Origin: Chrysomallon squamiferum
Lineage: Eukaryota > Animalia > Mollusca
Assembly (NCBI GenBank): GCA_012295275.1
Contig: CM022678.1
Coordinates: forward strand, 16,864,001-16,928,000
Length of the DNA: 64,000 bases
Reading direction: 5' to 3'
Shown one piece after another: positions 14 to 64,000 of the stretch. The notes below the pieces were generated by a model. It was not told the origin of the DNA. It saw only the letters and a program-made list of their open reading frames with translations, and ran no database searches. The first letter of the stretch is position 1. Every line of letters starts with the position of its first letter. Made by a program: the position numbers and the translations under genes.

Positions 14-118
14 TTTCAGTTGAATGTTTCACATGTAAAGACAACGCAGACCTATGTACCTTTGAAATCTGCAAGGAACACGAAATGGACTGTATGAAGA
101 CTTGTCACGTTTGTACAG
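14..118 (+). CDS. ShK-like domain exon, copy 1
   Basis: SVECFT-CKDNADLCTFEICKEHEMDCMKTCHVCT; six Cys with the terminal CxKTCxxC pattern; AG/GT bounded, phase 1. Confidence 0.8.
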
Positions 119-3100
119 GTAAATTTATCACGGTTGCAGGATAGCAGAATCGAGAGGAGAAGTATAGACCAGAAGGATAGTTCATATGTTAAGTAAGGAT
201 ACATACACAAAACAGTTGATATCCTAGTAAAATTTAAATATACACAGGATAGTTGTATTAAGTAACAACAGACACGCAGAATATTTATATAAGCACAGAT
301 AAACAGAATATTTGGTATGGTAAATAAGAATAGTTAACTAGGATAGATGAAACATACACATATCAGCTAGAACAGTTACCGCATACGAACGGATATATTA
401 AGAAGGATTTCTGCAGAATACAGTCAAACTAGATATGTTATTCAGAATTCCATGACAGTAGACATAATTTAGGTAGGATTGATACCCATGATAGATAATA
501 GCACAAAGGAAAGCTACGTATTAGGCAGGATAGCTTGTATAAGTACGATATGTGTACAGGTTACAGCTATGCTAAGATACGATTGATGGATTCACGTAAT
601 AGTTGGTATCCCAGTATACTAGATATACTTGAAAAAATAGATATATACGATGTAACGGCTGGCAGTTTAATTTTGTAACTGCACACAACCACATACGAAC
701 ATGCAGACACCAAATACAAAACAGTCACAAAAACATGAACATTTTTAATGTGTGTTAATAAATATAACGATTTTTCTTTTTGTACACATGCATACTGAGA
801 TACATTATTTCTCTTTTAATTTCAGTAAGTCAACACAGTTAATATGATTTGCTCGTGCACCCAATCCTTCTGTCTGCTCTCTCAATTTATCTTTTAATTA
901 CTGCAAATGTGGTAGCAGTGCACACACACCCTCCTCTAAATCTCGGTAAATTAATACGAGTAATTCTATTTTTATACGAGGGGTGTTCTGAGGGTTATTA
1001 CCATGGTGATGGCGACAGCTGTCTTTCCTTTTCTGTCAAAGACACAAAACATTCACCAAGTTACAAAGAAAAATGTAATATATTTTGTTCCAGTAAGAAA
1101 ACACATGGTAAAGATTGTAATAAGACCTGTAGGGACAGATGCTTGGATAGAATATGTTACAAATAGACGAGTGATTGTGAACGTTGTCCTTCTCGATTCT
1201 CTGGACCACGTTGTCAGCAGCACTGTAATAACACCGACGTCAAAGGTTTCTGCATCGGTGACTGTTTCTCTGGGTTCTTTGGTCCAAAGTGCGAAGAAGG
1301 GTGTCCAGTCGGATGTAAAGACAAAGTCTGCAACAAAACGACGGGAGAGTGTTCACTATGCCCTGAAGGATTTTGGGATACAACTTGTCAGCTTCGTTGT
1401 TCAGATAACTGTCTAAACAATTCCAGTAATGAAAGCGGCAAATGTTCTGTAGGTTGTAAAGTTGGGTTTTTCGGAATGAACTGCTCAAAGACATGCAACG
1501 CGAACTGTCTACATCAGGTATGTAAGAGGGAAAACAGATCGTGTACGGATGGCTGTGTTTCTAGTGAATACTACGGAGACTTTTGCGACAAAGACTGTCC
1601 TCATCGTTGTGTGAATTCCACCTGTGATCGTACAACTGGGAAATGTAAGAACAGATGGAAAGGAACGGATATTTATGGCACATTTTGCAACAATTCTTGT
1701 GGCTCAGTATGTCGTGTTCGATGTGAAAATATCTCCGAATACGTTCTATGCAGGGCGGTTTGTGTCAGCGGAAGAAAGGGAGAACATTAATGATAATAAT
1801 AATAGTAATAATAATAATGAAAATAACATCAAGAAGAAATATTTAGGAAGAAGGAAAAAATAAAAAATAACATAATCGTAAAAGTTCCTTTAGTGCAGTG
1901 ATGACAATAATTGCAATAACAGTTGTGATTATAAATTAATCTTTCAATTTCCGTATCTAGAAAAAGGAAGAAAAGATCTAAAAAGAATCAGCGACGTGCA
2001 CGACGACGTATGGAAAGCCTAATTCGAGCACGTATTAACCAGATACATCATGTGGAAATGCAACCAGGTTTTGTAATTTAATTAATTACGATATAATGAT
2101 GGTGATAGCAATAGCACCAACACCGGCACTAGTAACACTACTGAAAGAAGAAATAGAACAAAAAACAAAACAACAAAATACATGCCGCACACACAAACAC
2201 ACCAAGACAAAACAACAACAGCCATGTCCACCATCAGAACCTACATTATCAAACAACAGTAAGAAGAAACTGCATCAGCTCTAATAATAATAATAATAAT
2301 AATAATAATAATAATAATAATAATAATAATAATAGCAGTAGTAAGTAGTAGTAGTATTTTTATGGTGATGATGATAATATTAAGTATTTCAAAATAATCA
2401 GAAGAATTTCAATATTTTTATGCTAATGTTTTGACGTATAAGTTACAAGATACAAAACTCTTAATATTAACACTTAATGTTAAACTGTGACGAGACGTCG
2501 TGAAAGAAATATTGATTGATTGATTGAATGATTTTGTTATCTTCAGCAACCAGGCAGAGAAATTCCGACACGTCATTAGATGCTACGGGTGGAGTCCGTT
2601 GCCATAGCAGTCCATCTCATCCCTCAGCTGCGGATGGCATAGTGATCACGTATGATGAAAATGATGATGATAATGATAGTCATCATTATGAGTACATAGA
2701 TGACTGCATGATATCGTCTTAATAATAGCACAGGAATGTCTTCAAACGTTCCTCAGAACGAGACTGAAGAATTCGAAATGGAAAACGAGACCTTCTACGA
2801 AATACCCTATATTATAAACGTCTAACATCTAACAATGCAAACAACACGAACGATGTCGTGCCGCTTCTAGAGTCCGAGCAAGATGAAAGTGTTGATATTA
2901 AACATTTCCACACGTATGTGTACAATATGAGTCTTATGAATTGTTTCCAGCTTGAATTTCAGGTAAAGACTTGCTATTGGTTTTCTTCTCTTTTTTCTTC
3001 TTAAATATTTGTTGTTATTGTTATTGTTATTACTATTATTGATTTCATTGTTATTATTATTATTATTATTATTATTATTTTTGTTATTATTATTATTATT

Positions 3101-4490
3101 TTGTTTTTATTGTTATTTATTGATTGATTAATTATTGATCGTTATATTTATTATAATAATTTGACAATATTTTTCCTTAAAAGAATGCATTTTCTGAGTA
3201 ATTAATTGATATATGTACTTACTTATTGTCGTTTTAGAATTTATATTATGCATAATTGATCAATGGACGTATCGAATTGAATTTTTATATATTCATGTAT
3301 AATCACAGACACTACAAATCTCAGCCGTACAAACATAAGAAATAAAAATCATTAATTACGGTTCCCTTTTCAGTTTTTACAGAAAGTAAATTTATATTCT
3401 ACCAACATAGCAGACAAGATAGAAAATTTTCTTAAAAACAGATACAGGAATATAAAGCCATGTAAGTACAAAGGTGAACTATTATGTCGTTATTTTCCCT
3501 GTCTCGCTTGTTCTTGTTTTTGGTTTGTTGTATTTTTGTTTACTTTTTGTTGTTGTTGTTGTTGCTGGTCTTTGAAATCCGAAAATTCTTTTCGACTATC
3601 TGAAAGACTGATATCATAATTTTCACTACATAATTATTAAAAATATTACATAAAATTATCTGTAGACTATCTGTATTAATCGTAAATAGAGCTACTACTC
3701 CTATTGCTATTACTACTACTGCTATTACTAAACTCCTTTTTCTAGTTATTATTATTATTATTATTATTTTTATTATTTAACAGAAATTATATATTTTATT
3801 AATATATATATATATATATATAATATATATATATATTTTTTTTATTTGAAATAGTTTTAATTGAAGTTTACTCAAATTATATCCTAAGCATTTACACCTT
3901 TAATAAGAGTATTATTGTTTCTTTTTGTTTTGAATTATTTGAAAAGATGATTACAACAGAGTGACGCTTGAGGTAATTCCTGGAATCCCAGTCTCAGATT
4001 ATATCAACGCCAGTTTTATTGATGAAAGCTTATTTACTTATTTATTTATTTATATTTTTTTTTTATTTATCTATTTACTTTCCTATTAATTTCTTCAATT
4101 TAATTTTAATTTTAATTTTTTATTCATTACATATATTAATTTTCATATATTTGTTAACAAATACAAAAGTTTATACATATACAGTTTATCAAACACACAC
4201 ATTCATACATACACACAGCAACACATATTCATACATAAACACACACAGAAACACACACACAAATGCACGCACTTCCAATTATGATTTTTTATTTACTTAC
4301 ATATTTATATACATTTGAAATTCATTAATTATATTACTTTCAGTTCAGGGCTATCACAAATCAAAGTGGTATATTGCAGCACAAGGTCCTACAGAAAAGA
4401 CAGCAGCTGATTTCTGGAGAATGGTTTGGGAGGTCAACTCTACTCATATCATAATGCTTACGAATTTAGTTGATAGCAACAAGGTTTGCC

Positions 4491-4619
4491 CTCTCTCTCT
4501 CTCTCTCTCTCTCTCTCTCTCTCTCTCTCTCTCTCTCTCTCTCTCTCTCTCTCTCTCTCTCTCTCTCTCTCTCTCTCTCTCTCTCTCTCTCTCTCTCTCT
4601 CTCTCTCTCTCTCTCTCTC
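4491..4619. repeat. (CT)n microsatellite in the intron after PTP exon 3
   Basis: Perfect CT run; paralogous runs at 15401-15508 and ~33149-33214. Confidence 0.97.
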
Positions 4620-62327: not shown

Positions 62328-62341
62328 AGGAAACAGAAACT
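62328..62341 (+). promoter_or_regulatory. ISRE-like element, gene start 8
   Basis: AGGAAACAGAAACT. Confidence 0.58.
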
Positions 62342-62564
62342 GAAGATTGGGTAAGAACGACACGACATTCTAGAATTTTAGTGGGAAAATATCAGTATTT
62401 TTGTTTGTTTTATCTTCTCGTTTGTTCGTCTAAAGTATTTAACATGTTAAGATAGTGTGTTACGCATAGAAGAACAGATACTAGAAAATCGAATAACTTT
62501 CTCGCTCACGAATTTACAACAACATTGAGATAAACGATTCGTAATGACGGAAGTTGAATTAAAA

Positions 62565-62607
62565 ATGTCCCCGGTGATAATTCTACTGTTAGTTTTATCG
62601 CAGACAG
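62565..62607 (+). CDS. Signal-peptide exon of the next copy (gene continues beyond the window)
   Basis: [14 protein letters not shown] then G|GTAAAT; intron 1 sequence homologous to 7700-8460 runs to the window end. Confidence 0.8.
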
Positions 62608-64000
62608 GTAAATGTGTTTGAATTTGTTAAAATTGAGCTTCAGTCTCTGCACGTGTATTGTGTTTGTATGTGAGGTGTGTGATTGTGTGTGAGCGTATGT
62701 GTATGCCATTGTGTTTGTGTGTACGCTCGTGATTGTGTGCATGTGAGCGCGCGTGCTTGTGTGTATGTGTGTGATCGTGCTTGTGTGTCTGTGTACGCAC
62801 TGCTTGTGTTTCTTTCTGAATTATTTAAGAAACGTTTAATGCTTAGCCCACACAAAATAACTTAACTGATTTGTGTTAATAACGAGACACTCTAATAAGA
62901 AAACTTGGATGAGAAAACGTTGGATTGAGATAATTAATTCGTAAACTTGGTAGTTAACTATAAATCTACATTCAAAACAATTTATAATACATGTATATAT
63001 ATTTTACATTTTGTATTTAAAAAATATAATATATATTAATATCTGTATCTATATATTTATATATATGTATATCTGATTATGAAAACACAATTATCGGTCA
63101 TCAGGATCTTTAAACATACATATAGCTGTAGAATTTATTTACAGTGATTTGTGTTCCTAAATTAAATAATTTAAATATATATATATATATTTTTTTTTAC
63201 CTTGTTCTACCTTTTACTTTTTATATAATTTATTATTTTTTATCGTCATATTATATCTGTTTTATTTACATTTCTTTATAATAATAAGACAAATTAATAT
63301 ATATATATATATATATATATTGTATGTCTAAGATATTCTAATGTGCCTGTATAAGTAGTCCGTCATACTGGTTTGAAATATTTTTACTGACTTTTCAACG
63401 CTTTATTTAGTTTCTGTTTGAGCAGCGATCTGAATAAAAACTGCTCTAATGTAAAATGTTAAGTCGTGTCTTTGTGTTTACTGCATGAATGTTATCTCGT
63501 ATTGCGAACCAGAGAGATTGATTTCAGTCAGAACTGTCTGGGTAGTAGCCTGCACCTCGTTATGGTTCACCTGTTTTGTTTCAACCTTTTAATCTGATCG
63601 TGTTATTCTACAAGCATTCGTCCTATGAACAGATTCAACCAAACTATTTTCATAAACATATTTTTAGAAAGAGCAATATTTTAAATATAGTAAAACAGTG
63701 TGAAATTGAAGCTTAAAGCAACTACGCGGTCAAACACTTGTAGGAGCCTCTAAACACTCACCCGTCTCCAAACATTCTCCCAGGTTATGTAGGTCTATAC
63801 GTTTAAATAAAATGTAAAGCTTTTCAACAATAAAATTTAGTTGGTTTAAGCATAATTTTTTTGTATTTATACCGCATAAACGTTTGCACTCTGGCCTCCA
63901 TATGTGTACACTTTGTTATTTGTATAATAATCCTTGTTAAATCTGCTTGAACTTCGAATAAAAGCTCAAATACAATTTTAATCTATTATTTTACACAGTA

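What the first reader, a model, noticed from the sequence alone, without database searches (positions are those of the whole stretch)
14..64000. Tandem birth-and-death array of ShK-EGF-TM-single-PTP receptors: candidate invertebrate immune or recognition receptor system
Seen: five gene bodies and three extra gene starts share one architecture, an N-terminal ShK-like domain on a MEGF10/Draper-like EGF stalk linked to one PTP domain, with heavy pseudogenisation. Known: EGF-repeat receptor PTPs are expanded in some invertebrates, but I do not recognise ShK as a standard RPTP ectodomain, and clustered turnover of this kind typifies immune receptor loci. Inference: a variable tip, two signalling classes and ISRE-type promoters make this a candidate pathogen or allorecognition receptor family.
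Basis: partly seen in the sequence, partly recalled or inferred. Interest (0 to 1): 0.88.

Follow-up and report, generated by a model that had tools for sequence, protein, structure and literature searches.

The report
Snail ShK-tipped paired phosphatase receptor array
A snail-type genome carries a tandem, mostly broken cluster of surface-receptor genes with a variable ShK-like tip, an EGF stalk and one tyrosine phosphatase, and in related snails near-identical receptors end in a predicted activating motif instead, so the family likely works as an on/off immune recognition pair.

Summary
The array is real: five gene bodies and three extra starts on the + strand share signal peptide, six-cysteine tip, one large EGF exon, TM and one PTP domain. 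None is both whole and intact as assembled. Copy 4 is open from EGF to stop but its 5' end lies in a gap; copy 2 has a stop after the TM. Pfam misses the tip, but its profile retrieves ShK proteins (15 of 20 hits scanned; 3 of 4 PDB hits). RNA contigs of paralogues join tip to EGF and splice the PTP. The architecture is not unique: Gigantopelta and Haliotis proteins share it, and EGF-PTP receptor clusters tied to parasite resistance are published for Biomphalaria. New here: the ShK-like tip (dN/dS 2.6 against 0.5-0.6 in stalk and PTP), Ala and Asp P-loop classes, reciprocal swapping of outer and inner halves, a conserved ISRE-type motif, and, in the relatives, PTP-less partners with an ITAM-pattern tail (6 of 6) on ectodomains 62-91% identical to PTP-bearing ones. 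No ITAM partner lies in this window. Immune function is inferred, not shown. New variant of a known kind.

The parts
14..118 (+). Copy A tip exon (ShK-like, 6 core Cys plus one extra)
976..1787 (+). Copy A EGF exon: acceptor AG lost, one stop, 3' part and TM exon deleted
1961..6400 (+). Copy A juxtamembrane and PTP exons, Asp class (HCSDGVGR); frameshifts in JM2 and P5, P2 donor lost; pseudogene
7451..7462 (+). ISRE-type motif upstream of copy B
7657..7699 (+). Copy B signal-peptide exon
9823..9930 (+). Copy B tip exon (ShK-like, 6 Cys)
10663..11751 (+). Copy B EGF stalk exon, open, 62 Cys
12277..12376 (+). Copy B transmembrane exon
12883..13838 (+). Copy B juxtamembrane exons; in-frame stop in the first, disrupted 5' end of the second
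14249..17185 (+). Copy B PTP exons P1-P7, open, Asp class (KNRY, WMD, HCSDGVGR)
24546..24656 (+). Copy C tip exon (6 Cys); no signal exon found upstream
25557..26747 (+). Copy C EGF exon with two stops; followed by intron and N gap
27027..27226 (.). Assembly gap hiding the 3' half of C and the 5' end of D
27968..29158 (+). Copy D EGF exon, open, 68 Cys, internal 96-nt duplication
29384..31118 (+). Copy D TM and juxtamembrane exons, open
31495..35261 (+). Copy D PTP exons P1-P7, open, Ala class ([17 protein letters not shown]); single domain
38175..38451 (+). Copy E ISRE-type motif (38175) and signal exon (38409-38451)
41258..42937 (+). Copy E tip (5 Cys), frameshifted EGF exon with deletion running into the TM exon
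43430..47294 (+). Copy E juxtamembrane and PTP exons, Ala class; P3 frameshift, P4 and P5 missing; pseudogene
54749..55026 (+). Extra start F: ISRE-type motif and intact signal exon, no tip exon follows
56746..56914 (+). Extra start G: ISRE-type motif and degenerate signal start, cut by N gap 56915-57114
62330..64000 (+). Extra start H: ISRE-type motif, intact signal exon (62565), intron 1 running off the window; probably the head of a further copy

Best explanation
This is a tandem, recombining cluster of gastropod EGF-stalk surface receptors with an ShK-like tip and one phosphatase domain, which likely form the damping arm of a paired recognition system whose predicted activating arm is seen in related snails. 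Shown: the exon architecture, the lesions, the Ala and Asp P-loop classes, the mosaic copies, the relatives with and without PTP. Inferred steps: (1) the tip, held out on the stalk, binds a varying ligand on a microbe, parasite or cell; (2) in PTP-less members the twin YxxL/I tail would be phosphorylated by a Src-type kinase and recruit a Syk/Shark-type kinase, as Draper and Megf10 do; (3) Ala-class members with nearly the same ectodomain would be drawn to the same contact and dephosphorylate that signal; (4) Asp-class members would be weak or dead enzymes acting as binders or decoys; (5) unequal crossing-over swaps outer and inner halves and leaves pseudogenes; (6) the ISRE-type motif would make the genes IRF-inducible.
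For: Architecture and lesions. Splicing in RNA contigs of paralogues: tip 3' end joined to the EGF exon start in 3 X8 contigs (table 7); P5-P6 GT..AG joint in one X9 contig and in neither DNA run, carrying the Ala codon. Both P-loop codons occur in two other DNA runs from two studies. Asp at this position marks the inactive IA-2 phosphatases (PMC2661844, passages). dN/dS 2.58 tip, 0.68 first 88 EGF codons, 0.58 next 157, 0.48 PTP; tip above 1 in 6 of 6 pairs. Reciprocal mosaics: A is 93% like D in the first EGF part but 88-96% like B in the tail; E is 89-92% like B in intron 1, tip and mid-EGF but 95-100% like D in the tail. ITAM pattern in 6 of 6 PTP-less tails and 0 of 8 juxtamembrane regions of PTP-bearing proteins. 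Ectodomains group by lineage, not by tail; ITAM/PTP pairs 91%, 81-84% and 62% identical. ISRE-type motif: 10 of 10 specified positions invariant in 5 copies against 52% background; oyster IRFs activate ISRE reporters (PMC5557890, passages). Precedent: Biomphalaria MEGF-RPTP clusters at resistance loci (PMC12297450 passages; PMC13712769 passages and section 20).
Against: No ITAM-bearing member lies in this window and no genome is held to look elsewhere, so the pairing rests on relatives. The six ITAM tails are about two or three independent events, and three come from gene models that fuse tandem units (P0001, P0175). No copy here is whole and intact; 4 of 5 bodies are broken, and dead copies push dN/dS towards 1. 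Tip dN/dS is not significantly above 1 (p=0.07), and the tip-versus-stalk contrast is p=0.006, 0.03 or 0.12 by pairing. No Asp-class transcript was seen. The Ala class has WMD for WPD, so its activity is itself uncertain. No ligand, tissue or challenge data. The ISRE is a single duplicated site found post hoc.
Confidence: 0.5

Rival explanations
1. A non-immune adhesion or tissue-patterning receptor (nervous system, mantle, shell) that expanded because the locus is structurally unstable; the tip is merely less constrained.
For: Megf10/Draper relatives also act in synapse and corpse clearance and patterning (PMC8092387, passages); receptor PTPs are classic adhesion regulators (own knowledge). 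The window is full of microsatellites and transposon remnants. Tip dN/dS does not differ significantly from 1.
Against: Parallel expansion with tail switching in three lineages, ITAM-pattern partners, conserved ISRE-type motif, and the Biomphalaria GWAS precedent.
Confidence: 0.22
2. One working gene (D-type) surrounded by neutral debris; the Asp class and the stop in B are just decay.
For: 4 of 5 bodies are broken and the three extra starts lack bodies in the window; the only spliced P-loop transcript seen is Ala class; both Asp copies here are broken.
Against: Stalk and PTP show purifying selection (p=0.006, 0.003), A-B PTP dN/dS 0.34; the Asp codon makes up roughly half of the depth in two other DNA runs; RNA contigs come from several paralogues; an abalone relative has the same Asp change (P0033).
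Confidence: 0.15
3. An allorecognition (self versus kin) locus rather than a pathogen or symbiont sensor.
For: Variable tip on a stalk with activating and damping tails resembles invertebrate histocompatibility receptors (own knowledge); other individuals differ from copy B at many sites (best run holds 0.50 of its words).
Against: Solitary gastropods have no known natural fusion reaction (own knowledge); paralogue and allele cannot be separated in these contigs; the ISRE-type motif points to inducibility.
Confidence: 0.07
4. Assembly artefact: haplotigs laid in tandem and consensus errors posing as pseudogenes.
For: Two 200-N gaps; D and E 3' ends 97.4% alike over 2.9 kb; some lesions sit in homopolymer runs (A P5, B JM1, start G).
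Against: A-B-C and D-E each lie in gap-free stretches; most segments differ by 10-20%; exon deletions and nonsense changes are not homopolymer errors; other DNA runs show 11-30 distinct contigs over single exon positions.
Confidence: 0.06

Closest known systems
Biomphalaria SudRes1 / LG5R MEGF-RPTP ('scavenger class F-like') clusters (PMC12297450, PMC13712769)
   Same: Gastropod tandem cluster of single-pass EGF-repeat receptors, some with PTP and some without, copy-number and domain variation, candidate immune role.
   Different: There the tip is a galactose-binding/fucolectin domain and the PTP is tandem; here an ShK-like tip and one PTP. ShK and ITAM occur 0 times in the main text of either paper (supplements not read).
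Gigantopelta aegis XP_041360433.1 (P0004) and Haliotis XP_071094625.1, XP_046337962.2 and kin
   Same: Same tip, stalk, TM, single PTP; PTP 154 of 253 residues identical to copy D; window plus P0004 form a 100/100 clade.
   Different: Automatically named MEGF10-like or PTP mu/T-like with no ShK annotation; the window's copies form their own clade (99/98) with an Asp subclass.
Megf10/Draper/CED-1 engulfment receptors (PMC8092387)
   Same: EGF-repeat stalk, single pass; ITAM signalling shut off by a phosphatase.
   Different: EMI tip, invariant low-copy genes, phosphatase recruited in trans; here an ShK-like tip and the phosphatase fused to a paralogous receptor.
Vertebrate paired receptors (KIR, Ly49, SIRP, PIR; recalled)
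   Same: Near-identical ectodomains with opposing tails in recombining clusters.
   Different: Not homologous; they inhibit through ITIMs that recruit SHP-1/2, not through their own PTP domain.
IA-2/phogrin single-domain receptor pseudophosphatases (PMC2661844)
   Same: One PTP domain with Asp at Cys+2.
   Different: Unrelated ectodomain; KNRY and the WxD acid are kept here.

Membership tests
ShKT domain | Six Cys in about 35 residues ending CxxxCxxC | tested here: met
   3 of 4 window tips and the relatives' tips; E has lost one Cys; definition from PMC6409789 passages
ShKT domain | Pfam PF01549 match above cut-off | tested here: not met
   0 of 4 tips and 0 of the relatives scanned (P0001, P0004, P0012, P0031, P0033, P0155, P0161)
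ShKT domain | Profile-level homology to ShK proteins | tested here: met
   15 of 20 scanned hits carry Pfam ShK above cut-off; 3 of 4 PDB hits are ShK family, E 0.12-3; Atlas lead 0.89
ShKT domain | Helical ShK fold, C1-C6/C2-C4/C3-C5 bonds | tested here: inconclusive
   Model is three short helices, pLDDT 71, pTM 0.33; no match by VIA-align or Foldseek for 35 residues; bonds not inspected
ShK channel-blocking toxins | Secreted free peptide with Lys-Tyr dyad | tested here: not met
   Tip is spliced to a membrane-anchored stalk; no Lys-Tyr pair before Cys4 in the four tips
Classical receptor PTP, active D1 | KNRY, WPD, HCSAGxGRTG, Q-loop | tested here: inconclusive
   D has [18 protein letters not shown] but WMD; A and B have HCSDG; activity not testable
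Biomphalaria-type MEGF/GBD RPTP | Galactose-binding tip and tandem PTP | tested here: not met
   ShK-like tip; stop 84 residues after the P-loop, no second domain
Molluscan MEGF/SCARF-like receptor superfamily | Signal peptide, EGF-repeat stalk, single TM, tandem cluster | tested here: met
   the named hits are all molluscan
Paired activating/inhibitory receptors | Near-identical ectodomains with opposing tails in one lineage | tested here: inconclusive
   Met by sequence in Haliotis and Gigantopelta; no ITAM member in this window
Paired activating/inhibitory receptors | Shared ligand and opposite signalling in cells | not testable with these tools
   needs experiments
IRF-inducible immune gene | ISRE bound by IRF, induction on challenge | not testable with these tools
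   Motif present and conserved; binding and induction untested

The most novel reading that the evidence does not exclude
Abalones and vent snails have an undescribed paired-receptor system in which one ShK-tipped ectodomain is wired to an ITAM, to its own active phosphatase, or to a dead phosphatase, the halves are reshuffled by recombination, the tip is under diversifying selection, and the locus is IRF-inducible: an invertebrate analogue of KIR/Ly49 logic using a built-in enzyme instead of an ITIM, possibly used to tell symbionts from pathogens.
Probability: 0.3. Interest if true: 0.82.

Novelty: new variant of a known kind. Interest (0 to 1): 0.58.

Why it matters
Molluscan resistance loci keep mapping to clusters of EGF-stalk receptors whose signalling logic is unknown. 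This family gives a testable model: same ectodomain, ITAM or PTP tail, and a 35-residue ligand-binding tip small enough to express and screen. It also puts an ShK-like domain, which standard annotation misses, at the tip of a receptor phosphatase. Abalone members make it testable in a farmed animal. If the immune reading fails, it remains an ordinary lineage-specific expansion with an unannotated domain.

Tried and rejected
No whole genome is held, so copy number and ITAM paralogues in this species were not examined. Pfam gave no ShK or significant EGF hit. A homologue search on the P0004 tip region returned only itself among 9 candidates. Fold searches on the 35-residue model gave nothing, uninformative at that size. 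A second Atlas search did not complete. Summed contig depth was not used as copy number or expression. X8 record 20 over the P-loop exon was not counted as Asp-class expression, since the site is at the contig end and its upstream letters are not exon P5. The stop in copy B was not checked against reads. Skipping or alternative splicing that would rescue B was considered by eye; the obvious routes meet another stop or a phase clash, and one (early donor straight to P1) is untested. Six-frame ITAM matches in the window fall in introns or repeats; tblastn of three ITAM tails gave no hit better than E 0.08. The PTP tree lost 7 of 23 protein rows, including both chordate outgroups, to my extraction pattern; the ShK-single-PTP clade has only 85/80 support. 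Three look-ups of earlier findings were empty. Paper searches listed no title or abstract describing an ShK-EGF-PTP receptor or a molluscan ITAM/PTP pair; one search assumed an octopus, which the homologues did not support. The library lacks most subscription journals and no supplements were read.
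Full report
What is in the window. The sequence is 31% GC, rich in microsatellites, with two 200-N gaps. Self-comparison shows same-strand tandem copies 68-97% alike. Splice-site mapping gives one 13-exon plan: signal peptide (43 nt), tip (105-111), one EGF exon (1089-1191), TM, two juxtamembrane exons and seven PTP exons (88, 77, 135, 126, 161, 136, last), with phases that chain correctly. PTP exons hit Pfam Y_phosphatase (4 of 4 scanned). The reading frame ends 84 residues after the catalytic motif, so there is one PTP domain.

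State of the copies. A: EGF acceptor lost, a stop, TM exon deleted, two frameshifts and a lost donor. B: signal, tip, EGF and TM open, then an in-frame stop in the next exon and a disrupted acceptor region after it; PTP exons open. C: tip and EGF with two stops, then the gap; no signal exon upstream. D: open from EGF to the final stop; its tip would end about 50 bases inside the gap. E: tip with five Cys, EGF frameshift, deletion into the TM exon, two PTP exons missing. Starts F and H have intact signal exons, G is degenerate. So 0 of 5 bodies are both whole and intact as assembled; D is the likely live gene. A few lesions lie in homopolymer runs and could be consensus errors; the deletions and nonsense changes do not.

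Is it transcribed and is it more than one copy? Nine of 11 listed runs hold part of the B ectodomain region, from three studies; the best holds half of its words. In RNA run X8 three contigs carry the 3' end of a tip exon directly before the EGF exon start. In RNA run X9 one contig joins P5 to P6 across a GT..AG intron, a joint absent from both DNA runs. Most RNA contigs are under 99% alike (7 of 76 and 3 of 103 reach 99%), so they come from paralogues or other alleles, not demonstrably from these copies. In two DNA runs 29-30 contigs cover one position of the signal exon and 11-24 cover positions of a PTP exon; this is not a copy number, but the family is larger than one gene. Haplotig collapse is unlikely: A-B-C and D-E each lie in gap-free stretches and differ by 10-20% in most segments.

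The tip. Pfam finds nothing. A profile of seven tips (four from the window, three from relatives) finds 4 PDB sequences at E<=10, the top three ShK-family, and 21 of 1.84 billion representatives, of which 15 of the 20 scanned carry Pfam ShK above cut-off, two are Haliotis members of this family, and three have no ShK call. The Atlas gives ShK as a lead (0.89, on 11% of cluster members). The model is three short helices (pLDDT 71) but too small for fold searches. I read it as a compact, divergent ShKT domain with no toxin dyad, used as a receptor tip.

Relatives. The D stalk finds 30 proteins among 236 candidates, the named ones all molluscan. By eye, three of the 30 have the same tip after the signal peptide and a single PTP: Gigantopelta aegis P0004 (41% over 96% of the stalk; PTP 154 of 253 identical) and Haliotis P0001 and P0012. 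Cluster look-ups add more members, each species' set on one long contig. The organism is therefore inferred to be a gastropod whose nearest named relative here is the peltospirid G. aegis; I did not determine it further. The window's stalks form their own clade (99/98), sister to the Gigantopelta ones (98/95), with long-branch warnings: the expansion is lineage-specific, the architecture older.

Tails. A and B have HCSDGVGR, D and E HCSAGVGR. Both codons occur in two other DNA runs: Ala in 7 contigs (149 of 401 depth) and 8 contigs (11,606 of 20,970); the one spliced RNA contig is Ala. Asp at Cys+2 is the change found in the inactive IA-2 enzymes (PMC2661844, passages), so the Asp class is predicted weak or dead; all copies with that exon have WMD for WPD, and P0004 has WVD. 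In the relatives a third kind exists: the same tip, stalk and TM with a short tail. All 6 such tails carry YxxL/I-x7-8-YxxL/I, the ITAM pattern (consensus recalled); 0.08-0.6% of shuffles do; 0 of 8 juxtamembrane regions of PTP-bearing proteins do, nor do those of D or B (P0170, P0171, P0176 and P0180 were not tested). Four tails are close Gigantopelta paralogues and two are Haliotis, and three come from models that fuse two tandem units, so this is two or three independent observations. ITAM and PTP members have stalks 91% (H. rubra neighbours), 81-84% (H. cracherodii) and 62% (G. aegis) identical, against about 40% across lineages. No such tail is in the window.

Evolution. dN/dS is 2.58 for the tip (34 codons, 4 copies; p=0.07 against 1), 0.68 for the first 88 stalk codons (p=0.16), 0.58 for the next 157 (p=0.006) and 0.48 for 186 PTP codons (p=0.003). 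Tip versus stalk contrasts give p=0.006, 0.03 and 0.12 for the three pairings. The tip is less constrained; positive selection is suggested, not shown, and most copies are dead. A and E are reciprocal mosaics of B-like and D-like halves, and the stalk varies by 96-99-nt units.

Promoter. GAAANNGAAACT occurs five times, each 150-235 bp before a start, against 0.31 expected. The ten specified positions are invariant while the spacer varies; background invariance is 52% (naive p about 0.001). Oyster IRFs activate ISRE reporters in human cells (PMC5557890, passages). It is one ancestral site, and function is untested.

What is known. PMC12297450 (passages) reports 17 clustered MEGF/galactose-binding RPTPs with tandem PTPs at and near a schistosome-resistance locus in Biomphalaria sudanica; PMC13712769 (passages and section 20) describes a B. 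glabrata cluster with PTP-less and PTP-bearing subgroups. Neither main text mentions ShK or ITAM. PMC7895826 (section 8) lists MEGF among expanded immune families of G. aegis; PMC7142155 and PMC7736800 (passages) have no EGF, phosphatase or ShK mention. PMC8092387 (passages) gives the Draper/Megf10 ITAM-kinase-phosphatase logic; PMC6409789 (passages) defines ShKT and its gastropod contexts (CAP, astacin), with no phosphatase. Supplements were not read and could hold domain tables that bear on novelty.

Verdict. The system is a new variant of the molluscan EGF-stalk receptor clusters: ShK-like tip, single PTP in two classes and, in relatives, ITAM-pattern partners. The paired immune-receptor mechanism is the best reading at about even odds; every functional step is inferred.

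Noticed in passing
window 51451-55894 and 59115-63443: A 4.4-kb block duplicated at 88.8%, holding broken hAT-like transposase frames on the minus strand (PF05699, E 0.006, below cut-off) next to gene starts F and H.
   Followed up: partly
window 50606-51450 and 58239-59057: Another duplicated element with a short frame that recalls pogo/Tigger transposases (recalled; no Pfam hit).
   Followed up: partly
window 19459-19592 and about 20400-22200: Remnant of the family promoter upstream of copy C, separated from it by a GC-richer insertion; C's signal exon and ISRE-type motif are gone.
   Followed up: partly
window about 9190, 23773, 40603: A conserved donor-like site inside intron 1 of B, C and E, possibly an alternative non-coding exon; slight RNA cover at 9170-9339.
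   Followed up: no
P0033 (Haliotis asinina): Longer ShK-like tip, long EGF stalk and tandem PTP whose first domain also reads HCSDG: the Asp change appears to have arisen separately.
   Followed up: partly
P0001 and P0175: Public gene models that each fuse two tandem receptor genes, hiding PTP-less ITAM-pattern members.
   Followed up: yes
window 7673, 7871, 11232, 16283: At several sites nearly all contigs of two other DNA runs differ from copy B, so B's exact form may be private to this assembly or carry errors.
   Followed up: no
window 6730-7363, 37762-38090, 49958-51450, 57383-59087: Short interspersed repeats recur just upstream of the gene starts and may seed unequal crossing-over.
   Followed up: no
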